64,000 bases of DNA, taken from positions 67,487-131,486 of the forward strand of contig JBDRIT010000025.1 in NCBI GenBank assembly GCA_043815665.1, given 5' to 3'. Of this stretch, positions 25,888 to 36,086 are shown in pieces. The position numbers and the translations under genes were made by a program. The DNA is from Pseudomonadota bacterium. Its GTDB lineage: Bacteria; Myxococcota_A; UBA9042; CAIXZC01. The notes beneath the pieces were generated by a model that did not search any database, was not told the origin of the DNA, and saw only the letters and a list, made by a program, of their open reading frames with translations. The first letter of the stretch is position 1; every line of letters starts with the position of its first letter.

Positions 25888-25963
25888 GCAGCAGGAACTG
25901 AGGTCATCGGAAAGATGGGCGTCCGCCCCGAGGGCGAGGCGGACTTCCCCAGGCGCTACGGCC

Positions 25964-26293
25964 TCAGTCCGCGCCCGGGAACGCCTCCACGTACTTGATC
26001 TTGATGTCGGGGAACGCAGTGACGAACTGGATCTTCAGGTCCGGGAACGCCTCCACCATCTTCCACTTGCCGCAGGAGTCGGGGAAGGCTTCGACCATCT
26101 TGACCTTGAGGTCCGGGAACGCTTCCACCACCTGGACCTTCAAATCCGGGAACGCGTCCACCACCTTGATCTTGCCGTAGAGCTTGAAGCCCTTGCAGGT
26201 GCACGAGCCCTTGTCGACCTTGTCCTCTGCCTGGACGGGCGCCGCCAGGGCCACCATCGCCAGCACCACCACGGCTCCGATGAATCGTCTCAT
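25964..26293 (-). CDS. small secreted tandem-repeat protein (5-6 x 9-aa VEAFPDLKV repeats)
   Basis: Perfect GGAGGA RBS. Signal peptide MRRFIGAVVVLAMVALAAPVQA. KVVDAFPDLKVQVVEAFPDLKVKMVEAFPD...MVEAFPDLKIQFVTAFPDIKIKYVEAFPGAD. A 27-nt DNA periodicity is visible. Confidence 0.7.
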   Translation of the reverse strand: MRRFIGAVVVLAMVALAAPVQAEDKVDKGSCTCKGFKLYGKIKVVDAFPDLKVQVVEAFPDLKVKMVEAFPDSCGKWKMVEAFPDLKIQFVTAFPDIKIKYVEAFPGAD

Positions 26294-26340: not shown

Positions 26341-29334
26341 CTATTCATTCGGGAGCGTCGGAGCGAGGTGGATCTCCACCCGCCGGTTCCTGGCCCGTCC
26401 CTCGTCCGTGTCCGCAGGATCGACGAGGTCTGCGTCGCTGACCCCCACAACCTCGAGGATCTCGTCGGCGAGACCTGCACGCTGGAGGGCGGCCCCTACG
26501 GACCGGGCGCGCTCGAGGGAGATCTCGCGCTTCGACTCCGGCGTCCCCACCTGATCCGAATGCCCTTCGATCCGCAGGCGGAGCGGCGGCAGGCTACGGA
26601 GAAGGTCCACCGCGCTCCTGAGGGCCTCCACGGTCTCCCCGGGGAGGCTCACGGAGCTTCGCGGGAAGGGGACCGGGCGGAGGGCGCCCTCCAGATCCAC
26701 CATCCCCGGAGGGATCCGCGCCGGCGGGTCGGGCTCGGGGCAGCCGTCACCGTCCCGGTCCCCGTCGGGGTCCTCGGCCTCATCCTGGCAGAGATCGAAG
26801 GGATCCGTGATCCCGTCGCCATCCCTGTCCGGGTGCTGTGCGTCCCGGTCTTCCACACCCCAGTCCGCCTCCGGCGCCTCCGGAGGCGGGCGCCCCCCGA
26901 AGTGCGTCCCCCAGGAGACCCCCAGGCGGCCCTCGGCGCGGTCCCCGAAGGCCGTGTCCGTGATCCAGTGCGGGGTCCACCGATACTCCACCCGCGCCTC
27001 CCTGCTGTTGGCGTCCGGGGGCGCGTTGTGGTGGTAGACCGTCTCCAGGTAGAGCTCCCGTGTCACCTGCTTCCCCACGGTGAGGATCGGGTTCGCGGCG
27101 GACCTCCCGAACCCCAGGCCGAGGTTGTCCACGCCGATGTTGTCGAAGAGCTGCCGCTTGAGATCCGGGTTGTGGTACCGCTCGACCATGGAGGCGACCT
27201 GTCGCCGGACCTCACCGTCGCGAGAATCAACCACGTCCACCCGCCCCAGGATCAGCAGGGTCATGATCTGGAACTCCGGGAGCGGGGGGCTCGACAGGAG
27301 GACCAGGTCGGGCCGGTGCCCGGGCCCGGCGACGCGGACCAGGACGTGGGTCCGCTGCACCCGCCCCCGGGCGACCACGTCCAGCACCGGCTCCAGGGGA
27401 CGCGCCTCCCGCTCAGCAGACGCGCGCCTGAGGTGGCCCTCCGCGAGGGTGATGCGCCCGGCCCGAAGTTCGAAGCGGTTGTCGAAGAGGTCGATCCAGC
27501 CCCCGGGGGTGAGGTCCAGGCCACCGTGGACCCGCACCAAGGGCCCCGTCCGCTCCGTGCGGAGGGTCCCCGTGAGCTCCAGGGACACCCCCGGCCCCCG
27601 CACCTTGACGGGCGTACCCAGCGCCAGCACCAGCCTCCGGATCTCCGACCCATCCGACCCCTCTGCCGAGGCGCCGTCCTCGCGGGAGCCGACCACGCGC
27701 ACCGCAGGGTTCGTCGGAATGGCGCGGGGCTCCGGCACCTCGTCGTCGGTGATCCGGACCGCGCCCTTCACGACCGTCACGGTGAGGGTCCGCTCACCCG
27801 GGCGTGCGGTGAGACCGAGGTCCGCGACTGCAGTCAGGAGGACCACGGGCAACCCCTCCCGCAGCACCGGGAACCGCTGGAGTTTGAGCGCGGCCGTCCC
27901 GGTCAGGGTCGACGCGCTCCAGAGGGGTGCGTCCCCGGGGGTCCCCGCCGGGGTCGGATCCCAGGACAGGGCGCCGCGCCCCAGGACCTCCCCGGGCGCG
28001 GCCAAGGCAACCAGCTCGTCAATCTCCAGGGTCGTCCCGTGCACCCTCGCCCGCGCTCGGACCCCCCGCAGCCGCCGCCCGACGGGCAGCAGGTCGAAGG
28101 CTGCGTCCTCCACGGAGAGGGTGCCATCGAGCACAGGCGCCCCCAGAGTCCCGGACAAGCGGACCCCGCCGTGGACGCTGCCGCGGCCCCCGTCCAGGCC
28201 AGCCCCCAGGAAGGGGACCACCCGCCCGGCGGGGAGGTCCGCGGACAAGGTCCCATGCACCGGCGCGTCGACCAGGGACACCCCGGCCCTCCGGAGCCCG
28301 AGGAGAGGCATCCCGGCGGTCAGGTCGAGGTCGATCTCGCCCTCCCCCAGGGTGGCCCTGAGACGCTGGGTGTCCGGACCCGCCTCGAAGTGCGCGTCCA
28401 GGTCGACCCGGTCGCTGCCGGCCGCCACCGCCCCCTGCAGGGTCGCATCGATCCGGAGATCGTCCAGGGTTCCGGCGCCCCGCAGGGTGAAGCCCAGGAG
28501 GAAGTCGAGGTCCGGAGGAGCGCGCCAGAAGGGGCGGAGGAGGGACGGATCGATGACCCCCGCGGTCACGGAGATCCGGTGCTCCTCGTGGTCCCGCCAG
28601 GTCAGGCCGCCCCCGAGGAGGTCGAGACCGACAGGGAGCTCCCCGTCCAGGGTCAGGGCGGGGTCGTCCTCGGAGCCCCACAGCAGGTGCACCCGGGACC
28701 GGCCGGCGCTGTGCTGGACACGGGCCTCCACCGCACCGAGGACCGCGCCCCCCCAGGTTGCGTCCGCGACGCTCAGATCCAGCTCCAGGGCCGGCGCCCG
28801 GGGGTCCCCCGAGAGGCGGATCTCGCCCTGCAAGGTGCCGCCCAGGGGGGCCCAGCCCAGGACCTCGCCGAGGGCCCCGAGATCCACGCCATCCACGCGC
28901 AGCGCCGCGGCCAGGGGCCCTGGACCCAGCGAGATCGTTCCCTGGGACAGCTCCACTGCGGCCTCGAAGGTGGCGTCGAGGGCCAGGCGGCCGATGCCGC
29001 CCTCCACCACGGCGGACAGCTCCCCGGGGGAGCCGGCCGGGGACCAGAGCTCCAGGGAGAGCGCGCCCAGGGGCACCCCCCCCACGTGGAGCTCCTCCAC
29101 CCTGCAGCGGAGGAGCCGATGCATGCCGGCGTCGTCCATGACCACGGCGAGTCGGACCTCCACCACCCCGTCGACTGCCTCGAGGGCCGGCCAGTCACTG
29201 AGCAGGCTCGCCAGGGAGCTGCGCCAGGACAGGTGCAGGTCCGGATCCTCCGCCACGACCTCCCGCTGGGGCGCACCCCAGGCCACCGCCGGCAGGAGCA
29301 GACAGGCGACCAGGAGAATCTGCCGGGCGCTCAA
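26341..29334 (-). CDS. TamB-like translocation/assembly module protein (DUF490) with TSP3-type Asp repeats and C-terminal OmpA-like peptidoglycan-binding domain
   Basis: N-terminal signal-anchor. A long beta-rich body. DUF490-like ...VTRELYLETVYHH..., then DRDGDGITDPFD...DPDGDRDGDG, then OmpA_C (LRIEGHSDQVG...NRRVEI). Confidence 0.7.
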   Translation of the reverse strand: MSARQILLVACLLLPAVAWGAPQREVVAEDPDLHLSWRSSLASLLSDWPALEAVDGVVEVRLAVVMDDAGMHRLLRCRVEELHVGGVPLGALSLELWSPAGSPGELSAVVEGGIGRLALDATFEAAVELSQGTISLGPGPLAAALRVDGVDLGALGEVLGWAPLGGTLQGEIRLSGDPRAPALELDLSVADATWGGAVLGAVEARVQHSAGRSRVHLLWGSEDDPALTLDGELPVGLDLLGGGLTWRDHEEHRISVTAGVIDPSLLRPFWRAPPDLDFLLGFTLRGAGTLDDLRIDATLQGAVAAGSDRVDLDAHFEAGPDTQRLRATLGEGEIDLDLTAGMPLLGLRRAGVSLVDAPVHGTLSADLPAGRVVPFLGAGLDGGRGSVHGGVRLSGTLGAPVLDGTLSVEDAAFDLLPVGRRLRGVRARARVHGTTLEIDELVALAAPGEVLGRGALSWDPTPAGTPGDAPLWSASTLTGTAALKLQRFPVLREGLPVVLLTAVADLGLTARPGERTLTVTVVKGAVRITDDEVPEPRAIPTNPAVRVVGSREDGASAEGSDGSEIRRLVLALGTPVKVRGPGVSLELTGTLRTERTGPLVRVHGGLDLTPGGWIDLFDNRFELRAGRITLAEGHLRRASAEREARPLEPVLDVVARGRVQRTHVLVRVAGPGHRPDLVLLSSPPLPEFQIMTLLILGRVDVVDSRDGEVRRQVASMVERYHNPDLKRQLFDNIGVDNLGLGFGRSAANPILTVGKQVTRELYLETVYHHNAPPDANSREARVEYRWTPHWITDTAFGDRAEGRLGVSWGTHFGGRPPPEAPEADWGVEDRDAQHPDRDGDGITDPFDLCQDEAEDPDGDRDGDGCPEPDPPARIPPGMVDLEGALRPVPFPRSSVSLPGETVEALRSAVDLLRSLPPLRLRIEGHSDQVGTPESKREISLERARSVGAALQRAGLADEILEVVGVSDADLVDPADTDEGRARNRRVEIHLAPTLPNE

Positions 29335-31253
29335 AATGTCTCCCCGAAGCCGAAGTAGATCCCCCAGGCCGGCTCATCGGGGTAGACCCCCGGGTCGTTG
29401 AGGCGGAAGCCGGCGTCCAGGCGCAGCAGTCCGATGGGGCTGGTCACACGGATCCCGGGCCCCGCGGAGACGTTCCACTCCTCGGGGCGCCAAGTCGCCT
29501 GTCCCGCCTGGACGTCCCCGAAGTCCAGAAAACCCACCAGGTGGATCATGGTGATGATCTTGAGGCGGAGCTCGAGGTTGCCCTGGATCATGGTGGCCCC
29601 ACCCACGGGGATCGAGGTGCACGTCCCCTGGTCGTCGCACTCCTCGACCCTGGGTGAGAGGCGCCGGTTGCCCCAGCCCCGCACCGTGTCCGCACCGCCG
29701 AGGTAGAGGGTGTGGGTCAGGGGCGCGCCCGGGTTCTGGCCGAAGGTCAGGATGAGGCCTGTACGCAGCTTGGCCGCCACCTGGAGACGGCCCCAGGGGC
29801 GCCACCAGGCACGCACCCCGCCCAGGAGGCGCTGGAAGTCGTAGTCGCTGCCCAGGTACTTCGCCGCCACGAGGTAGGAGGCGTCCAGGGTGACGCCATT
29901 CCTGGGCGTGAGGATCGAGTCCGTGAACCAGGCCGCGGCCTGGAGCTCCACATAGCCCAGGAGGAACGGGTCCCGGAAGTCCCGGCCCAGCAGGGACGCC
30001 TGGGCGTCCAACGCCGGGGTGGTCGCGAAGAAGTCCACGAAGCGGATGTTGTGGCTCACGCCCAGCTGGTATCGGCCGGCGAACCAGCGACTCACCCCGA
30101 TCCGGTTCGCCGGAGAGTAGTACTGGTAGCCCTCCTGGATGTCCACGTCGAAGCGCGGCGTGAGCTCCCAGATCAGGTGCTTCTCCAGGAGGCCCTTCCG
30201 GGTGAACCGGGGCACCAGGGAGACCGCGGGGCCGTGCTGGAGGGGCGCCCAGGGGTTGGGCAGCTCCGCCCAGCCGGCGAGGACCGTCGCGTCGAGGCGC
30301 ACCAGGCGCCCGAAGAGGTTGGTGTGGGTGTACTCCGCCGCGATCTGCTCCTGCCAGCGGGAGGTCTCGACGGCCAGCCGGACGCCCACGCGGACGCTCT
30401 GGGGATCCGCCTCGTCCACCCGGATCGTGACCTGGACGCCGCCACGATCCACTTCGGTCGCAGGCTGGACCGCGACCCATCGGAAGACCCGGGTGCTCTT
30501 CAGGGCCGTCTCGATCTGCTGGATCAGCGCCGGGGTGTAGAGGGCCCCGAGGGCGAAGTCGATCTCGTTGCGCGCCAGGTTCTCCGGGACCCGGTCCAGC
30601 CCCTCAAAGCGGATCCCGGAGAGGAGGGCGGCGGGTCCCGGATCGACCTCCAGGACCACGTCCGCCTTGCGCGTGAGGGGGTGGACCTCCGCGCTCCCCC
30701 GCACGCGGGCCAGGGGATGACCCCGGTTGCGCAGGGTCTGGGAGAGTCTGCCCACGGTCGCGTTGAGTCTGTCCACCTCCCAGGGGCCACCGGGGTCGAG
30801 GGTGACCATGGTCTCGAGATCCTCCCGCACGGGCGGAGGAAGCGGACACCCGGGCGCCCACCGGACATCGATCCCGCTGACCCGGGTTCGGGGGCCCTCA
30901 TCGACGACGATCCGCAGGCCGGCGCGGCGCCGTCGGCGGTCGAGGCGCGTCTCCACCGCGAGGACCTTCGCGTCGAGGAAGCCGTAGGCGCGGTAGAGCG
31001 CCTCGATGCGGTCGGCGTCGATGCCCACGATGCCGTCGTCGAGATGGTAGGTCGGCGCGGTCGGCATCCAACGCGTCACGCCGAGGTGGAGATGCTCCAG
31101 GAGGGTCTCCTGGTCAAAGCGCGTCACCCCGACGAGCTCCACCCCCTTGATCCGGTAGCCGGACCGCAGCACATGGCGCTCCTTCCGGCCACACCCGGGT
31201 GCGAGGAAGAGAGCGGCGAGGAGGAGGAGCGTGAAGCGGGCGCGTCGGGGCAA
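29331..31253 (-). CDS. Omp85-family outer membrane protein (BamA/TamA-like; POTRA + beta-barrel)
   Basis: 640 aa with a lipobox/signal start. POTRA-like N-terminus. C-terminal surface-antigen barrel ending ...GIYFGFGETF. 4-nt overlap with the TamB-like gene. Confidence 0.8.
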   Translation of the reverse strand: MPRRARFTLLLLAALFLAPGCGRKERHVLRSGYRIKGVELVGVTRFDQETLLEHLHLGVTRWMPTAPTYHLDDGIVGIDADRIEALYRAYGFLDAKVLAVETRLDRRRRRAGLRIVVDEGPRTRVSGIDVRWAPGCPLPPPVREDLETMVTLDPGGPWEVDRLNATVGRLSQTLRNRGHPLARVRGSAEVHPLTRKADVVLEVDPGPAALLSGIRFEGLDRVPENLARNEIDFALGALYTPALIQQIETALKSTRVFRWVAVQPATEVDRGGVQVTIRVDEADPQSVRVGVRLAVETSRWQEQIAAEYTHTNLFGRLVRLDATVLAGWAELPNPWAPLQHGPAVSLVPRFTRKGLLEKHLIWELTPRFDVDIQEGYQYYSPANRIGVSRWFAGRYQLGVSHNIRFVDFFATTPALDAQASLLGRDFRDPFLLGYVELQAAAWFTDSILTPRNGVTLDASYLVAAKYLGSDYDFQRLLGGVRAWWRPWGRLQVAAKLRTGLILTFGQNPGAPLTHTLYLGGADTVRGWGNRRLSPRVEECDDQGTCTSIPVGGATMIQGNLELRLKIITMIHLVGFLDFGDVQAGQATWRPEEWNVSAGPGIRVTSPIGLLRLDAGFRLNDPGVYPDEPAWGIYFGFGETF

Positions 31254-31260
31254 GACGATC

Positions 31261-33333
31261 TCAGCCGTCCGCGTTGAACTGGGCTTGGATCTCCTTGACG
31301 ATGGGGGTGGACGCCTTGTCCTCGGAGAAGAGCCAGAGGCGGACCTCGAGGTACTTCCCGTCCATCGCAGGGAGGATCGAGAGATCCAGGGGGAAGGTGT
31401 CCGGCGGGAAGGGCCCGAACATGCCCTGCCAGGGCGTGACCTCGAGGACCTCCTCGGTCATGGCGGTGCGGACCTCCACCATGATGTTCGCACCGACGGG
31501 GATCTCCGCGTTCACCCAGAGGGACTCCCACTTGACCCGGATCTCGGACCAGCCGCCCAGGGTGGTGGAATAGGAGCCCTGGGGCGCGGTGAAGTTCTGC
31601 AACGCGTAGCCGGTCATGTCCGAGTAGGTGTACGGGCTCTGCCCCACGGGGTAGGGCCCGAACTTCTGGCCGGTATGGGGGTCGATCTTCATCGCGTTGC
31701 TGGAGCCGTAGTTCACCGCCCAGACGTATCCCCCGGAGTCCAGGGCCACGCCGATGGGCGTGTTCCCCGGGGAGATGTCCAGGATGGAGACCTGGAGGGT
31801 GTCGATATCGACCTTGGCGATGCTCGAGCCGCCGCACCCGAGCCCGGAGTACATGTACCCGTCCGTGGAGCCGGCCATGCCCCGGGGGCAATGACCGCTC
31901 AGGTTCTGGGTGATGGCGTTGAACTGGTTGGTCTGCGGGTTGAACCGGGTGATGCAGTTGGCGCTGTAGTGGCCGATCCACACCATCCCGTTCATGTCCA
32001 CGGTGATCCCGTAGAGGCTGTTGCAGGGCGGCGACCAGGACTGGACCTGGGCCGGCTCCACGTTGGGATCGACCCGCACGAGCTTGTCGCCGCCGCGGCC
32101 GCTCACCCAGATGACGCCTTCGCCGTCGAGGACGAGGCCGTAGGGGTTCGCGGGGATGCTCACCTGGTGGGTCTGGATCCCGGTGTCCGGCGTGAGGCGC
32201 CGCAGGATCTGCTGGTTCCACATGCCCACCCAGACGTGGTTGTCCGCGTCGACCCCCAGGGCCCGTGCGCAGGTGCCGCCGGGATACACGGTGAAGAGGA
32301 CGCACTCGTCCTGCCCAAAGGGCAGCATCTCGTTGGACTGGATCTGCCCGTCGCCGCTGGCGTCATTGGACGTGTCGATGACCCCGTTGCCGTTCAAGTC
32401 CACGCAGAGGGCCTCGTCGATCGCGATCTTCATGACGCCGCCGTCCGAGCGACAGCCCACCCAGGCGTTCCCGTAGAGGTCCACCGCGGTCCGGGAGGGG
32501 CTCCCGCACCCGTGGTACCGGCCGAGCTCCTTCCCGGTCTCCGTGTCCAGCTTCGACACAGTGGCCTCGCCGGAGTTGGCGATCCAGATGAAAGCCAGGT
32601 TGAGCTTGGTGGAGTCGAGGATCAGGAAGCCGTCGAGGTTGAGGCCCACGCCGTCGGAGTTCTCGTCTGTAGGGACGAAGGGGTTCTCCGAGTTCGGCCC
32701 CGCCTTCAGGGTGTCGCACATGGGGTCACAGTCGCCGCAGGGGGAGAGCACCCCCTCGTCCACCTGCCCGTCACAGTCATCGTCCAGGAGGTTGCAGGCC
32801 TCGGGCGTCGCCACCACCTGGCCCAGGCACTCGCTCCAGTACTGGCCGTCGCAGTACCGCTCCCCGAGGGAGCAGACCCCGATGCCGACCTCCGCGGGGT
32901 CACCCTCGTAGCAGAACTCCACGAGGTTGGGCTGCTCGCAGGGACAACCCGCGGTGGTCTGGTACGCGCAGGGCGGACAGTAGACGTTGAAATTCGGGTT
33001 CGACTCGTCGCAGTCGCCGCCGACGAAGCACCCGGGCCCGTACCCGTCGCCATCCAGATCCAGGCAGTCCTCCGGCAGCTGCCCGGTGTCGAGCCCGGGG
33101 ACGATCTCCGGGCCCCCCGCGTCGGGGATTGCTTCGGCGCTGTCGGGGTCACCCCAGATCACCTCGGGATCAGCGGGGTCACCCGCGTCCTCCCCCGGTT
33201 CGGATCCCGCTACGTCCTCCCCGTTCCAGCTGAATCCCGAGTCCTCGGGGGCAGAGCCTCCACCGGTCTTGTTGGACTTTCCGCACGCTGCGAGGGCAAC
33301 GATGACGAGCATGACGACGGTCGTTCGAGGCAT
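31261..33333 (-). CDS. lipoprotein with MopE-like Cys/Asp 'putative metal-binding' motifs and beta-propeller repeats
   Basis: MPRTTVVMLVIVALAAC lipobox. CLDLDGDGYGPGC...DCDESNP and CNLLDDDCDGQVDEG motifs. Repeated G..WV propeller-like blades. Confidence 0.7.
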   Translation of the reverse strand: MPRTTVVMLVIVALAACGKSNKTGGGSAPEDSGFSWNGEDVAGSEPGEDAGDPADPEVIWGDPDSAEAIPDAGGPEIVPGLDTGQLPEDCLDLDGDGYGPGCFVGGDCDESNPNFNVYCPPCAYQTTAGCPCEQPNLVEFCYEGDPAEVGIGVCSLGERYCDGQYWSECLGQVVATPEACNLLDDDCDGQVDEGVLSPCGDCDPMCDTLKAGPNSENPFVPTDENSDGVGLNLDGFLILDSTKLNLAFIWIANSGEATVSKLDTETGKELGRYHGCGSPSRTAVDLYGNAWVGCRSDGGVMKIAIDEALCVDLNGNGVIDTSNDASGDGQIQSNEMLPFGQDECVLFTVYPGGTCARALGVDADNHVWVGMWNQQILRRLTPDTGIQTHQVSIPANPYGLVLDGEGVIWVSGRGGDKLVRVDPNVEPAQVQSWSPPCNSLYGITVDMNGMVWIGHYSANCITRFNPQTNQFNAITQNLSGHCPRGMAGSTDGYMYSGLGCGGSSIAKVDIDTLQVSILDISPGNTPIGVALDSGGYVWAVNYGSSNAMKIDPHTGQKFGPYPVGQSPYTYSDMTGYALQNFTAPQGSYSTTLGGWSEIRVKWESLWVNAEIPVGANIMVEVRTAMTEEVLEVTPWQGMFGPFPPDTFPLDLSILPAMDGKYLEVRLWLFSEDKASTPIVKEIQAQFNADG

Positions 33334-33353: not shown

Positions 33354-33382
33354 ATTCTATAACTTCTGAATAATCATATCAA
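33354..33382 (-). promoter_or_regulatory. near-consensus sigma70-type promoter (TTGATA-N17-TAGAAT on minus strand) for the lipoprotein/Omp85/TamB operon
   Basis: The reverse complement of 33354-33382 reads TTGATA tgattattcagaagtta TAGAAT, about 20 nt before the GGAGGTG RBS and the ATG at 33333. It sits in an AT-rich divergent intergenic region. Confidence 0.45.
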
Positions 33383-33492: not shown

Positions 33493-34284
33493 TTGAGTAC
33501 GGGGGAGGAACCGATCGTCGTCGTCGAGGAGCTGCGAAGGCGGTTCGGGGACAACGAGGTCCTCAAGGGGATCGACCTGCCCATCCCCGAGGGCCTGGTC
33601 ACGGTGATCATCGGCGCCTCGGGCTCCGGGAAGTCCGTGCTCGTGAAGCACATCATCGGGTTGCTCCTGCCCACGTCCGGACGAATCCTGTTTCGGGGGA
33701 ATGATGTGACGTCGATGTCGAGACGAGCGCGGGACCGGATCCGGCACCACTTCGGGATGCTGTTCCAGCACTCCGCGCTCTTCGACTCCATGAGCGTCGA
33801 GGAGAACATCGCGTTCCCCCTGGTGGAGCACACCCGGAAGACCCGCAAGGAGATCCGGCGGGTCGTCGCAGAGAAGCTCGAGCTCCTCGGGCTCTCCGGG
33901 ATCGAGCGGATGAACCCCTCGGACCTCAGCGGCGGCATGCGCAAACGCGTCGGTCTCGCTCGGGCCATCGTCCTCAACCCCGACGTCCTGATCTACGACG
34001 AGCCCACCACGGGCCTGGACCCCATCACCACCATCCAGGTGGACCGGATGATCAAGGAGGCCCAGCAGAAACTCCACGTCACCTCCGTGGTCATCAGCCA
34101 CGACATGGCCTCTACCTTCCGCATCGCAGACCAGGTGGCCATGATCCACGATGGCCGCATCGTCGAGCGGTGCCCGCCGGACGCGTTCCGAGTGAGCGCG
34201 AAGCCCGAGGTCCGGGAGTTCCTCATGGCCTCCTCCCTGGGGGGCGATGGCCTCGCGCTCATGGAGCGGGAGGACGCATCATGA
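33493..34284 (+). CDS. ABC transporter ATP-binding protein, MlaF-like
   Basis: Walker A GASGSGKS, signature LSGGMRKRV, Walker B LIYDEPTTGLD. TTG start after a GGAGGTG RBS. Confidence 0.9.
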   Translation: MSTGEEPIVVVEELRRRFGDNEVLKGIDLPIPEGLVTVIIGASGSGKSVLVKHIIGLLLPTSGRILFRGNDVTSMSRRARDRIRHHFGMLFQHSALFDSMSVEENIAFPLVEHTRKTRKEIRRVVAEKLELLGLSGIERMNPSDLSGGMRKRVGLARAIVLNPDVLIYDEPTTGLDPITTIQVDRMIKEAQQKLHVTSVVISHDMASTFRIADQVAMIHDGRIVERCPPDAFRVSAKPEVREFLMASSLGGDGLALMEREDAS

Positions 34285-36086
34285 AGCGCCTCTACGCGCC
34301 CCTCTCCGTGGGTGTCATGCTCGTGCTGGGGGTGGCCGGCCTCCTCTACGCGCTCGGAGAGATCCGGGGGACAACCTACGACGCCACGAACTCCTACACC
34401 GTCTGGGCCCGCTTCAGCGACGCGTCGGGCCTCGCTGTGGACTCGTCGGTGACCATGGCCGGCATCCAGGTCGGGGTCATCGAGGCCATCGTTCTGGAGC
34501 AGGATGCGACGGGGCAGGTCTCCGCAAAGGTGACCCTCAGGGTCAAGAACGACGTCTCCCTGCGCTCGGGCGGCCCCGGGGAGTCCGGCCCAAACGAGGG
34601 CGGCGCCGTGGTCTTCAGGGAGAACTCCTCGATCCTGGGTGACTACTTCCTCTCGTTGCTGCCGGGGGTCCAGGGCGGGAAGCTCGCAGCAGGAGACGAG
34701 ATCCCGAAGGTGGTCGGGAAGACGGGCCTCGACGCGGTCATGGAGCAGCTCTCCAAGGTCAAGGACCTCTACCCGAAGATGGAGAAGATCGTCACCAACC
34801 TCGCCGACGTCAGCGAGGGCCTGTCCACGGCCATGGGTGGGAAGGACGGCGGCGAGAGACTCAAGGTGATCGTCGAGAACGCAGGGCGCATCAGCGAGGA
34901 CATGAAGCAGATCTCGGACGACGTGAAGCGGGTATCGGGTGCGATGAAGGGCTTCGTGGACGACGGCACCGTGAACACCATCGCCATGGATCTGGCCTCC
35001 ACCTCCCGGGACGCCGCCTCCGTGGTCGGCCGGATCGACGAGCTCATGAGCGCCGGGGACGTAGAGCAGCTCGTCGCCAACCTCGTGGAGACCTCCGAGG
35101 CCATCTCCCGGTTCGGCAAGGACCTCGAGGAGCTGGTCGAGAGCGGCATCAAGCCGCAGATCTCCAAGCTGGACCGGACCTTCGGCAACCTGGACCGCTT
35201 CGCGTCCAACATCGCCACCCTCTCGGACCACGGCGGCAGGACCCTGGGACAGACCCTGGACAACTTCAAGACCATCTCCGAGGAGGCCCTCGCGGTCATC
35301 GGCCGCTCCAAGGGCGACGTGGAGACCTCCCTGGGCACCCTCAAGGGGACCCTGGCCGCGGCCCAGGGCTCCATCGGAAAGCTGGACGAGGTCCTGGACG
35401 ACGTGCGGGCCGTGACCCGGGACGTGCGGGCGGGCAAGGGCACCATCGGGCGGCTCCTCACCGACGACAAGCTCATCGGACAGGTCGAGGAGGTCGTGGA
35501 CGACACCGCGAGCTTCATCAAGCAGTACACCCTGATGCAGACCCACGTGCAGATGTCCTCGGCCTGGTACTGGAACCAGCAGGCGGCGCGCACGGCCTTC
35601 GAGCTGCGGTTCCAGCCGAAGGACGACAAGTACTACCTCTTCCAGCTCGTGGACGACCCCCGGGGCTCGACGAAGCAGACCACCACGGTCACCCAGACCA
35701 ACGATCCGGCCCTCCCGTCGGTCCTCAAAGAGAACGAGACCAGGACCACGTCGTCCTTGAAGTTCACGTTCCAGTTCGCCAAGCGCTGGTACTTCCTCAC
35801 CGGACGCTTCGGGATCATGGAGAACACCGGGGGGGCCGGCGTGGACTTCACGTTCTTCCGGGACCGCCTGGACTTCCAGTTCGACCTCTTCGACTTCGCG
35901 ATGGACCACAACCCGCGGCTGCGCACCCAGGTGGCCTTCGAGGTGATCCGGCACCTGTTCCTCTACGGCGGCGTGGACGACCTCGTGAACCCCAGGATGC
36001 GGGACTACTACTTCGGCGCGGGCCTCCGGTTCACCGACGAGGACATCCGCTCCCTCCTCATGGCGGCCCCGTCCCTCAACCTCTGA
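34281..36086 (+). CDS. MCE/MlaD-family protein with long coiled-coil-rich C-terminus
   Basis: N-terminal TM, then an MCE domain (TVWARFSDASGLAVDSSVTMAGIQVGVIEAI). ATGA overlap with the MlaF-like gene. Confidence 0.8.
   Translation: MKRLYAPLSVGVMLVLGVAGLLYALGEIRGTTYDATNSYTVWARFSDASGLAVDSSVTMAGIQVGVIEAIVLEQDATGQVSAKVTLRVKNDVSLRSGGPGESGPNEGGAVVFRENSSILGDYFLSLLPGVQGGKLAAGDEIPKVVGKTGLDAVMEQLSKVKDLYPKMEKIVTNLADVSEGLSTAMGGKDGGERLKVIVENAGRISEDMKQISDDVKRVSGAMKGFVDDGTVNTIAMDLASTSRDAASVVGRIDELMSAGDVEQLVANLVETSEAISRFGKDLEELVESGIKPQISKLDRTFGNLDRFASNIATLSDHGGRTLGQTLDNFKTISEEALAVIGRSKGDVETSLGTLKGTLAAAQGSIGKLDEVLDDVRAVTRDVRAGKGTIGRLLTDDKLIGQVEEVVDDTASFIKQYTLMQTHVQMSSAWYWNQQAARTAFELRFQPKDDKYYLFQLVDDPRGSTKQTTTVTQTNDPALPSVLKENETRTTSSLKFTFQFAKRWYFLTGRFGIMENTGGAGVDFTFFRDRLDFQFDLFDFAMDHNPRLRTQVAFEVIRHLFLYGGVDDLVNPRMRDYYFGAGLRFTDEDIRSLLMAAPSLNL

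What the first reader, a model, noticed from the sequence alone, without database searches (positions are those of the whole stretch)
26341..33333. TamA/TamB-like operon with unusual additions: beta-propeller MopE-motif lipoprotein upstream, and TamB carrying a C-terminal OmpA-like peptidoglycan-binding domain
The gene order on the minus strand is: lipoprotein (33333-31261), Omp85 (31253-29331), TamB-like (29334-26341), repeat protein. There is a near-consensus promoter at 33354-33382.

The TamB-like protein ends with TSP3-type Asp repeats and an OmpA_C domain (LRIEGHSDQVG...NRRVEIHL). OmpA_C is not part of canonical TamB. Canonical TamB spans the periplasm and contacts TamA through DUF490. 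A peptidoglycan anchor would tie the translocon to the cell wall.
Basis: partly seen in the sequence, partly recalled or inferred. Interest (0 to 1): 0.5.

Follow-up and report, generated by a model that had tools for sequence, protein, structure and literature searches.

The report
Cell-wall-anchored short TamB with lipoprotein Omp85
An uncultured, probably myxobacterial genome encodes an outer-membrane assembly pair (Omp85 plus TamB) in which TamB is half the usual length, appears to lack its usual inner-membrane anchor and ends in a peptidoglycan-binding OmpA domain; this layout is conserved in a small clade and I found no description of it in the papers I searched.

Summary
Four co-directional minus-strand genes follow a near-consensus promoter: a beta-propeller lipoprotein, an Omp85 protein, a 997-aa TamB-like protein and a small repeat protein. 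The TamB-like ORF is uninterrupted. It hits Pfam TamB (residues 524-812, E 6e-31) and OmpA (890-984, E 1.5e-13).

The fusion is not an artefact. It recurs in independent assemblies down to about 35% identity. About 24 of about 40 cluster representatives of one "short TamB" clade carry it, and none of the long TamBs among the best 150 hits do.

- The clade is half-length. Its N-termini look like cleavable Sec signal peptides (AxA|Q), not the TamB membrane anchor, and it lacks the N-terminal region of long TamBs.
- The Omp85 partner keeps a lipoprotein-type cysteine in 16 of 16 loci, as TamL does.
- The upstream lipoprotein and the downstream repeat protein are lineage-specific neighbours, not conserved parts.

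The OmpA module starts just after the strand equivalent to E. coli TamB's last strand, which pairs with TamA beta1. It should therefore emerge in the periplasm under the outer membrane, as in OmpA itself.

Most likely this is a TAM variant tethered to the cell wall at its outer-membrane end. It is a new variant of a known kind, of moderate interest.

The parts
33354..33382 (-). Sigma-70-like promoter TTGATA-17 nt-TAGAAT in an AT-rich island. It lies about 20 nt upstream of the lipoprotein ATG, with a GGAGG ribosome-binding site in between.
   Evidence: 10 of 12 positions match; 1 site found against 0.2 expected. Sequence read.
31261..33333 (-). 690-aa lipoprotein with a LAAC lipobox. It has an acidic linker, a Cys-rich region with a sub-threshold MopE-type motif, a Vgb-lyase/SGL-like beta-propeller and a C-terminal domain. 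It is a lineage-specific first gene of the operon, not a conserved part of the TAM-like pair.
   Evidence: for domains; more than 466 homologues; next to Omp85-TamB only in the window and in L009/L010 (85% identity).
29331..31253 (-). 640-aa Omp85-family protein with a signal peptide ending in Cys (LFLAPG-C), three POTRA domains and a C-terminal beta-barrel. It is TamA/TamL-like by architecture and operon position.
   Evidence: Omp85 96.5 bits, POTRA 64.1 bits. BamA, TamA and TamL models all below their cut-offs; residues 33-321 align to BamA model positions 150-431; the Cys is conserved in 16 of 16 loci.
26341..29334 (-). 997-aa TamB-like protein, one uninterrupted ORF. Its TTG start overlaps the Omp85 stop codon (TTGA).
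   Evidence: NCBI record P0001 has the same 997 residues.
29275..29334 (-). Residues 1-20, a predicted cleavable Sec signal peptide (MSARQILLVACLLLPAVAWG|AP). It stands where canonical TamB has its inner-membrane signal anchor.
   Evidence: Short clade: median uncharged run 17 aa and hydropathy 1.69, with AxA before Q in most. Long TamBs: run 24 aa and hydropathy 2.72, with a conserved LYT..GTR motif. This is a heuristic; SignalP was not available.
27289..29238 (-). Residues 33-682, a continuous beta-taco (repeating beta-groove) domain. It aligns with roughly the C-terminal 750-800 residues of long (1500-1700 aa) TamBs.
   Evidence: AF2 model with 33 sequences, pLDDT mostly 80-96. Foldseek match to 9xdc_B and 9xdd_B (E. 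coli TamAB), E 2e-11; alignment ranges.
26899..27276 (-). Residues 687-812, the C-terminal TamB domain, with three helices and then five or six amphipathic beta-strands. It ends in the beta-signal-like strand GRLGVSWGTHF (F812).
   Evidence: the last position of the Pfam TamB model (381 of 381) aligns to residue 812; secondary structure. PMC12800296: E. coli TamB has two helices and six strands, and the last strand pairs with TamA beta1.
26701..26898 (-). Residues 813-878, a Pro- and Asp-rich hinge. It contains GGRPPPEAPE, a TSP3-like calcium-binding-type motif DRDGDGITDPFDLC, DPDGDRDGDGC and PEPDPPARIPP.
   Evidence: composition and motifs; aligns to the TSP3 region of Capnocytophaga OmpA 5wtl. 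Pfam TSP_3 not significant.
26359..26700 (-). Residues 879-992, an OmpA_C-type peptidoglycan-binding domain. The Asp927/Arg942 pair is conserved (GHSD...ERA...NRRVE).
   Evidence: PF00691 E 1.5e-13. TM-score (target-normalised) 0.8-0.9 and rmsd 1.3-2 A to Pal, OmpA, OprF, YfiB and TagL, including 3td5 bound to a peptidoglycan peptide. D927 and R942 invariant.
25964..26293 (-). 109-aa secreted protein with six repeats of about 11 residues (xVEAFPDLKVx), behind a strong ribosome-binding site. It is the lineage-specific last gene of the operon.
   Evidence: A 91%-identical copy follows TamB in L002, and a copy follows TamB in L009/L010. It is absent from L013-L016.

Best explanation
The core of the locus is a two-gene TAM-like module. 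It pairs a lipid-anchored Omp85 protein (three POTRA domains plus a barrel) with a short TamB-like protein.

The TamB-like protein is exported by a cleavable signal peptide. Its roughly 650-residue hydrophobic beta-groove is followed by the usual TamB C-terminal domain of helices and amphipathic strands. By analogy with E. coli TamAB, this domain docks into and onto the Omp85 barrel, with the last strand pairing with barrel strand beta1.

That last strand runs back toward the periplasm. The extra 185 residues therefore emerge just under the outer membrane. A Pro/Asp-rich hinge, probably calcium-binding, lets an OmpA_C domain reach the peptidoglycan and bind it non-covalently through the conserved Asp/Arg pair. 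This is the same layout as OmpA itself: a membrane beta-element, then a hinge, then a wall-binding domain.

The result is a TAM variant fixed to the cell wall at its outer-membrane end rather than to the inner membrane at its N-terminus. Its groove projects inward to receive unfolded outer-membrane proteins and/or phospholipids.

Shown: the domains, the continuity of the ORF, the conservation of the fusion, the predicted fold, and the conservation of the binding residues and of the Omp85 cysteine.

Inferred: signal-peptide cleavage, lipidation, docking to the Omp85 barrel, periplasmic location of the OmpA domain, peptidoglycan binding, and the cargo.
For: - Domains and ORF continuity.
- The fusion is conserved in independent assemblies at 60%, about 40% and down to about 35% identity. 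These include named Myxococcota MAGs and one MAG labelled Oligoflexales.
- Pfam finds OmpA in 20 of 33 aligned clade members and TamB in 33 of 33.
- In a neighbour-joining tree the OmpA-bearing members are basal and paraphyletic, and the OmpA-less ones mostly form one nested group. This suggests an old module that was later lost.
- The Pfam TamB model ends at F812, and OmpA-less relatives stop 15-35 residues after the same FGGPPP.
- In the E. coli TamAB cryo-EM structure the last TamB strand pairs with TamA beta1, and the preceding loop LP5 contacts extracellular loop ECL1: PMC12800296. From that I infer that the chain end faces the periplasm.
- The AF2 model has mean pLDDT 80.6. It shows a taco, then helices and strands, then a flexible hinge, then an OmpA fold.
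- Foldseek matches TamAB (E 2e-11) and peptidoglycan-binding domains (TM-score, target-normalised, 0.8-0.9).
- D927 and R942 are invariant.
- Signal-peptide-type N-termini, and no match to the first ~570 positions of an HMM built from the N-terminal 850 residues of long TamBs.
- The Omp85 cysteine is kept in 16 of 16 loci, and the Omp85 gene sits directly upstream wherever sequence is available.
Against: - Nothing here is experimental, and all members come from uncultured MAGs or metagenomes.
- Signal-peptide cleavage rests on my own heuristic, not on SignalP. An uncleaved short hydrophobic segment could still hold the N-terminus at the inner membrane.
- The C-terminal strands are modelled with low confidence (pLDDT 40-55), and no complex with the Omp85 protein was modelled.
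- The Omp85 protein scores best against the BamA model and below every equivalog cut-off, so calling it TamA or TamL is architectural only.
- Whether the genome also has a full-length TamB, or a separate N-terminal half, could not be checked. None lies in the 64-kb window.
- A third of the clade lacks the OmpA module, so it is not essential to the pair.
Confidence: 0.6

Rival explanations
1. It is a conventional inner-to-outer-membrane TamB bridge. The N-terminal hydrophobic segment stays uncleaved as a signal anchor, or the protein joins end to end with an inner-membrane partner or a second AsmA-like protein. The OmpA domain only stabilises the bridge where it crosses the wall.
For: [quoted passage not shown] Two-protein bridges exist, such as YdbH-YnbE (PMC11126948, listed). 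The mature N-terminus carries a conserved motif (L..L...WP....L.G, with G56 invariant), which could be a docking site.
Against: The hydrophobic runs are 11-20 residues, with AxA|Q sites in most members, against about 24 residues in long TamBs. The groove is only about half the length of the related long TamBs. No candidate partner is conserved next to the pair.
Confidence: 0.25
2. The Omp85 gene is one of the several BamA paralogues of myxobacteria. The pair is then a BamA-TamB couple of the kind seen in lineages without TamA, and not a distinct TAM variant.
For: The best NCBIfam hit is BamA TIGR03303 (155.9 bits), above TamA (81.5) and TamL (75.6). [quoted passage not shown] TamB often sits in an operon with BamA outside the Proteobacteria (PMC4494059).
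Against: It has only three POTRA domains and a conserved lipoprotein cysteine. Those are the hallmarks of TamA and TamL, not of housekeeping BamA. All scores are far below the equivalog cut-offs. This rival concerns the name more than the mechanism.
Confidence: 0.3
3. The OmpA-like domain does not bind peptidoglycan. It acts instead as a protein-interaction or regulatory module (as YfiB uses its OmpA-like fold with YfiR), or it is surface-exposed.
For: Foldseek also matches YfiB. The Asn of the usual 'YN..LS..RA' motif is replaced by K/R in the window protein.
Against: The Asp/Arg pair and NRRVE are conserved. The closest sequence relatives are wall-binding proteins: OmpA, Pal, PA1041 and YiaD. 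The strand topology inferred from E. coli TamAB points the chain into the periplasm.
Confidence: 0.1
4. The fusion is an artefact: a frameshift, a missed stop or a chimeric assembly has joined a TamB gene to a neighbouring OmpA gene.
For: None found. High-GC DNA does give long spurious ORFs.
Against: It is a single ORF with both Pfam domains in frame. The same architecture occurs in more than 20 independent cluster representatives and in loci from different studies and assemblers. The hinge is conserved across them.
Confidence: 0.01

Closest known systems
E. coli TamA-TamB (translocation and assembly module; PDB 9xdc and 9xdd)
   Same: An Omp85 gene is immediately followed by a TamB gene. The TamB has a beta-taco groove and a C-terminal DUF490 domain of helices plus amphipathic strands, ending in an aromatic beta-signal-like strand. 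Foldseek E is 2e-11.
   Different: The TamB part is about 810 residues rather than 1259. It has a cleavable-type signal peptide instead of a signal anchor, and no TamB_N/Chorein-N region. It carries 185 extra C-terminal residues (hinge plus OmpA_C). The Omp85 partner has a lipoprotein cysteine. The NCBIfam TamB and TamA equivalogs score far below their cut-offs (30 against 825, and 81.5 against 625).
TamL-TamB of Bacteroidota and Chlorobiota
   Same: [quoted passage not shown]
   Different: This one sits in probable Myxococcota. It scores 75.6 bits against the TamL model (cut-off 400). The papers I read do not report TamL systems with an OmpA-fused or anchor-less TamB.
OmpA-family wall tethers with a TSP3-like hinge (Capnocytophaga gingivalis OmpA 5wtl; PA1041-family anchor; Myxococcus TraB C-terminus; E. 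coli OmpA and Pal)
   Same: The order is the same: a membrane-associated beta-element, a Pro/Asp-rich hinge, then an OmpA_C domain with the conserved Asp/Arg pair. The best PDB sequence hit is 5wtl, E 1.2e-14 over residues 821-990. The NCBIfam PA1041 and TraB models align over 821/833-990.
   Different: Here the module is attached to the end of a TamB groove protein, not to an 8-stranded barrel or a lipid anchor.
Other envelope machines with an OmpA-like wall anchor (MotB/PomB stators, T6SS TagL/TssL, Dot/Icm T4SS outer-membrane cap)
   Same: A trans-envelope or envelope-embedded machine is fixed to peptidoglycan by an OmpA_C-type domain. These appear among the structural matches.
   Different: In those systems the anchor belongs to an inner-membrane or core-complex subunit. 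Here it sits at the outer-membrane end of a TamB-like (AsmA-family) protein of the TAM.

Membership tests
TamB / AsmA-like (PF04357, NF047952) | C-terminal DUF490/TamB domain | tested here: met
   PF04357 scores 108.5 bits against a cut-off of 22.4, over residues 524-812, reaching the last model position. It is found in 33 of 33 clade members.
TamB / AsmA-like (PF04357, NF047952) | Long beta-taco / repeating beta-groove fold | tested here: met
   The AF2 model has mean pLDDT 80.6, with a continuous strand array over residues 33-682. Foldseek matches 9xdc_B and 9xdd_B with E 2e-11 and 2e-9.
TamB / AsmA-like (PF04357, NF047952) | N-terminal inner-membrane signal-anchor helix | tested here: not met
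   The hydrophobic run is 14-17 residues and is followed by AWG|AP. The clade median run is 17 residues against 24 in long TamBs, and AxA|Q occurs in most members. This is a heuristic; no SignalP.
TamB / AsmA-like (PF04357, NF047952) | N-terminal TamB_N / Chorein-N-like region | tested here: not met
   No PF27051 hit in any of the 33 members at E 1e-3. An HMM built from the N-terminal 850 residues of long TamBs matches only through its positions ~570-840. One precomputed 'faint' TamB_N hit exists, in P0003.
TamB / AsmA-like (PF04357, NF047952) | NCBIfam TamB equivalog score | tested here: not met
   NF047952 scores 30.1 bits against a cut-off of 825.
TamB / AsmA-like (PF04357, NF047952) | Encoded next to, and working with, an Omp85 partner | tested here: met
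   An Omp85 gene lies directly upstream in the window and in every locus where upstream sequence is available. Physical interaction cannot be tested here.
OmpA_C peptidoglycan-binding domain (PF00691) | Profile match above the curated cut-off | tested here: met
   51.3 bits against a cut-off of 27.2, over residues 890-984.
OmpA_C peptidoglycan-binding domain (PF00691) | Beta-alpha-beta-alpha-beta-beta fold of solved wall-binding domains | tested here: met
   TM-score (target-normalised) 0.78-0.89 and rmsd 1.3-2.3 A to Pal, OmpA, OprF and TagL, including 3td5 (A. baumannii domain with a peptidoglycan pentapeptide).
OmpA_C peptidoglycan-binding domain (PF00691) | Conserved Asp and Arg that hold the diaminopimelate residue (from my knowledge of A. 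baumannii OmpA D271/R286) | tested here: met
   D927 (GHSD) and R942 (ERA) align with the Asp and Arg of E. coli OmpA and Pal. Both are invariant in the three-sequence alignment A1 (P0001-P0003) and conserved in the five fused homologues compared.
OmpA_C peptidoglycan-binding domain (PF00691) | Actual binding to peptidoglycan in the periplasm | not testable with these tools
   Needs a pull-down or in-situ localisation.
Thrombospondin type 3 repeat (PF02412) | Profile match | tested here: not met
   9.2 bits against a cut-off of 25, E 1.3. There is only the motif DRDGDGITDPFDLC and an alignment to the TSP3 region of 5wtl.
TamL (lipoprotein Omp85, NF052279) / TamA (NF047950) / BamA (TIGR03303) | Equivalog score | tested here: not met
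   TamL 75.6 against 400, TamA 81.5 against 625, BamA 155.9 against 297. Omp85 superfamily and POTRA are met.
TamL (lipoprotein Omp85, NF052279) / TamA (NF047950) / BamA (TIGR03303) | Three POTRA domains plus an N-terminal lipoprotein signal with a conserved Cys, in an operon with TamB | tested here: met
   Residues 33-321 align to BamA model positions 150-431, which I read (from my knowledge of BamA) as POTRA 3-5. A Cys follows the signal-peptide core in 16 of 16 loci. Lipidation itself is not testable, and LipoP/SignalP were not available.
MopE-type metal-binding motif (PF11617), upstream lipoprotein | Profile match | tested here: not met
   18.8-20.8 bits against a cut-off of 27. This is a motif-level resemblance (CNLLDDDCDGQVDEG).

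The most novel reading that the evidence does not exclude
The short clade is a TAM that does not bridge the two membranes at all. It would consist of a Sec-secreted, anchor-less half-TamB hung from a lipidated Omp85 barrel and pinned to peptidoglycan. If so, the TamB groove can work without direct contact with the inner membrane, for example as a periplasmic chute for unfolded outer-membrane proteins. Alternatively it meets a still unknown inner-membrane partner at a conserved N-terminal WP motif. Either way it would be a natural experiment separating TamB's outer-membrane-proximal function from lipid bridging.
Probability: 0.3. Interest if true: 0.7.

Novelty: new variant of a known kind. Interest (0 to 1): 0.5.

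Why it matters
Two questions about TAM are open. One is whether TamB mainly assembles proteins or mainly carries phospholipids. The other is how the complex is placed relative to the cell wall (PMC11014939 lists both under 'in need of answers').

This conserved natural variant has three unusual features: a wall-binding domain fused directly behind the strand that engages the Omp85 barrel, a groove about half the length of the related long TamBs, and no apparent inner-membrane anchor. That combination gives a testable case of what the outer-membrane-proximal half of TamB can do by itself.

It would also extend lipoprotein-type Omp85 partners of TamB beyond Bacteroidota and Chlorobiota. It adds TAM to the envelope machines that use an OmpA-like wall anchor.

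Its limits are that it is confined to uncultured lineages and that every functional step is inferred.

Tried and rejected
- A profile search of the 5.8-billion-protein set with the 33-sequence alignment returned only 14 hits and missed known clade members. It gave no census. I relied instead on the exhaustive representative search and the metagenome scan.
- The Pfam TSP_3 and MopE assignments did not reach their cut-offs.
- The precomputed 'Septknot' label for the small repeat protein was not reproduced by hmmscan, even at E 1.
- The same-MAG paralogue of the lipoprotein (P0011) could not be located on a contig.
- I tested whether the upstream lipoprotein is a conserved accessory subunit and rejected the idea.
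- I considered the divergent ABC-ATPase/MlaD pair as a functional partner. In L009/L010 another gene separates it from the operon, and it is absent from the other loci, so I treat it as a neighbour only.
- A 10-bp GC hairpin follows the last gene, but the 67-nt fold is not significant (z -1.4) and there is no T-run.
- Literature searches found no description of a TamB-OmpA fusion or of an anchor-less TamB. Absence from this library is not proof of absence.


Full report
**What is there**

On the minus strand, four genes follow one another with almost no spacing:
- a 690-aa gene at 33333-31261;
- a 640-aa gene at 31253-29331;
- a 997-aa gene at 29334-26341;
- a small gene ending at 25964.

The second and third genes overlap by 4 nt (TTGA). 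The first and second are 7 nt apart.

The only sigma-70-like site in 10.5 kb is TTGATA-17-TAGAAT at 33382-33354. It lies in an AT-rich island just upstream of a GGAGG site and the first ATG. One site was found against 0.2 expected.

The flanks are unrelated. Downstream is a convergent amidohydrolase gene. Upstream, on the other strand, is a divergent ABC-ATPase gene followed by an MlaD-domain gene.

**Domains**

Gene 1 is a lipoprotein with a LAAC lipobox and a Vgb-lyase/SGL-type beta-propeller. Its MopE-type motif is sub-threshold.

Gene 2 has Omp85 and POTRA domains.

Gene 3 hits Pfam TamB at 524-812 (E 5.8e-31) and OmpA at 890-984 (E 1.5e-13), in one uninterrupted frame. The TamB model's last position aligns to F812 of '...GRLGVSWGTHF'. 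After that come:
- a Pro-rich hinge (GGRPPPEAPE);
- Asp-rich motifs of thrombospondin type 3 style (DRDGDGITDPFDLC). These are not significant by Pfam (9.2 bits against 25);
- the OmpA domain.

TSP3 and MopE hold at motif level only.

**The fusion is real and conserved**

The identical protein is in an NCBI MAG record. Homologues at 60% and 38% identity keep the hinge and the OmpA domain.

An exhaustive HMMER scan of 1.84 billion cluster representatives returned 164 proteins at E<=1e-30. The best ~42 form a distinct group of 830-1100 aa. After them come long TamBs of 1300-1800 aa.

An OmpA HMM that I built finds a C-terminal OmpA domain in about 24 full-length members of the short group. It finds none in the long TamBs among the top 150. 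Pfam confirms TamB in 33 of 33 and OmpA in 20 of 33 aligned members.

A metagenome scan added 14 TamB-like loci, 13 of them of the short type (L030 encodes a long TamB), and 10 carry the OmpA domain. Named sources are Myxococcota or Myxococcales MAGs, plus one MAG labelled Oligoflexales. The window's own record is labelled 'Pseudomonadota bacterium', which is probably a default label.

In a neighbour-joining tree without support values, the OmpA-bearing members are basal and paraphyletic. Most OmpA-less members form one nested group. That pattern fits an old acquisition followed by loss. OmpA-less relatives end 15-35 residues after the same FGGPPP.

1. The short clade aligns with roughly the C-terminal 750-800 residues of the related long TamBs. 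It lacks their N-terminal region. An HMM built from the N-terminal 850 residues of long TamBs matches only through its positions ~570-840. No member hits TamB_N.

   The N-termini look like classical cleavable signal peptides. The window protein starts MSARQILLVACLLLPAVAWG|AP. Across the clade the median uncharged run is 17 residues and the best 19-residue hydropathy is 1.69, with AxA before Q in most members. Long TamBs have runs of 24 residues and hydropathy of 2.72, followed by a conserved LYT..GTR motif. Reviews describe bacterial AsmA-like proteins as anchored in the inner membrane by an N-terminal helix (PMC10345924). This clade therefore departs from the family at a defining feature. 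My test is a heuristic, not SignalP.

2. The Omp85 partner has a cysteine at the end of its signal peptide in 16 of 16 loci. Examples are APG-C, VAG-C, LAA-C and LVG-C. It also has three POTRA domains. That is the architecture of the 'Omp85 lipoprotein' TamL, which the papers report in Bacteroidota and Chlorobiota (PMC4104836, PMC4494059, PMC12045153). By score it fits no equivalog: BamA 155.9 against 297, TamA 81.5 against 625, TamL 75.6 against 400.

3. The upstream propeller lipoprotein and the downstream repeat protein are not conserved parts. The lipoprotein has more than 466 homologues, including a paralogue in the same MAG. At 60-64% identity its homologues sit in unrelated contexts. 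Only the closest relatives (85% identity, L009/L010) keep the four-gene order. Other fused loci have only the Omp85-TamB pair.

**Structure**

With the 33-sequence alignment, AlphaFold2 gives mean pLDDT 80.6. The model shows:
- a short N-terminal helix;
- a continuous beta-taco over residues 33-682, with pLDDT 80-96;
- three helices over 687-732;
- five or six low-confidence strands over 750-808;
- a flexible hinge;
- a confident OmpA fold over 879-992.

Foldseek against the PDB puts E. coli TamB from the TamAB cryo-EM structures first (9xdc_B, E 2e-11). Then come dozens of peptidoglycan-binding domains (Pal, OmpA, OprF, TagL, YfiB, MotB) at TM-score (target-normalised) 0.7-0.9. One of them is the A. 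baumannii domain bound to a peptidoglycan pentapeptide.

The Asp and Arg that hold diaminopimelate in OmpA-like domains are conserved here as D927 and R942. That role is from my knowledge of A. baumannii OmpA.

The best sequence match in the PDB is the TSP3-plus-OmpA_C periplasmic portion of Capnocytophaga OmpA (5wtl, E 1.2e-14 over 821-990). The appended piece is therefore a familiar 'hinge + OmpA_C' cassette.

**How it most likely works**

In E. coli TamAB, the C-terminal domain has two helices and six strands. The very last strand (1251-1259) pairs with TamA beta1. The preceding hairpin loop touches extracellular loop 1 (PMC12800296).

From that I infer that the last strand runs from the outer face back to the periplasmic face. 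Anything appended to it would then emerge in the periplasm directly under the outer membrane. That is exactly where OmpA's own wall-binding domain hangs from its barrel.

The window protein's '...LGVSWGTHF-GG-PPPEAPE...' even resembles OmpA's 'last barrel strand, then Pro-rich hinge' layout. The OmpA sequence here is from memory.

The hinge is 66 residues. [quoted passage not shown] Reaching the peptidoglycan is therefore geometrically easy.

I conclude that the module is a TAM variant whose outer-membrane end is pinned to the wall. Its half-length groove projects inward.

I cannot tell whether it still bridges to the inner membrane, through an uncleaved N-terminus or through a partner. No other TamB-like or OmpA-like ORF lies in the 64-kb window.

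**Comparison and novelty**

It works like TAM and contains a TamB domain. It fails three TamB membership features: the anchor, the N-terminal region and the equivalog score. Its Omp85 protein fails all equivalog cut-offs.

I found no paper describing a TamB-OmpA fusion or an anchor-less TamB. Database annotators label members either 'TamB domain-containing protein' or 'OmpA-like peptidoglycan-associated protein'.

I rate it a new variant of a known kind, with interest about 0.5. It is conserved and mechanistically suggestive. But it is confined to uncultured lineages, and every functional step is inferred.

Noticed in passing
window 33493-34284 (+) and 34170-36086 (+): An ABC-transporter ATPase gene and a 638-aa MlaD/MCE-domain gene are transcribed divergently from the operon's promoter region. 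This is a second putative envelope lipid-trafficking system next door. In L009/L010 the same pair lies nearby, but a Pyr_redox gene separates it from the operon. No MlaE-type permease was seen between them.
   Followed up: partly
window 25964-26293 (-): A 109-aa secreted protein with six ~11-residue repeats (xVEAFPDLKVx) and two Cys pairs, behind an AAGGAGG ribosome-binding site. A 91%-identical copy follows TamB in L002, and a copy also follows TamB in L009/L010. A precomputed Pfam label 'Septknot' (PF19647) was not reproduced by hmmscan.
   Followed up: partly
window 25921-25944 (-): A 10-bp GC-rich hairpin (GUCCGCCUCG/CGGGGCGGAC) lies right after the small gene's stop and could end the operon. 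It has no T-run, and the 67-nt fold is not significant (z -1.4).
   Followed up: yes
protein P0270 (from the representative search): A 1580-aa protein with seven tandem OmpA-like domains. It appeared among the hits only because of the OmpA part of the query.
   Followed up: no
L003 1-528 and 6226-9960: In a Myxococcota MAG the Omp85-TamB-OmpA pair is flanked on both sides by paralogous Cys-rich MopE-motif proteins. They are 87% identical over their first 103 residues. This hints that MopE-motif proteins recur near this pair, although they are not homologous to the window's lipoprotein.
   Followed up: partly
L015 4034-6001; L022/L024 2052-3980: In these metagenome contigs the Omp85 gene upstream of the fused TamB is split into two ORFs (POTRA part and barrel part). 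This is either a sequencing or frameshift error or a decaying gene.
   Followed up: no
window as a whole; protein P0011: The NCBI record calls the MAG 'Pseudomonadota bacterium', but all named relatives of its proteins are Myxococcota, Myxococcales or Deltaproteobacteria MAGs. The propeller lipoprotein has a 65%-identical paralogue elsewhere in the same MAG (ABIK09_20715).
   Followed up: partly
window residues ~40-60 of the TamB-like protein (about 29155-29217, minus strand): A motif near the mature N-terminus (L..L...WP....L.G, with G56 invariant) is conserved across the short clade. It could be a cap or a docking site for an unknown partner at the open end of the groove.
   Followed up: no
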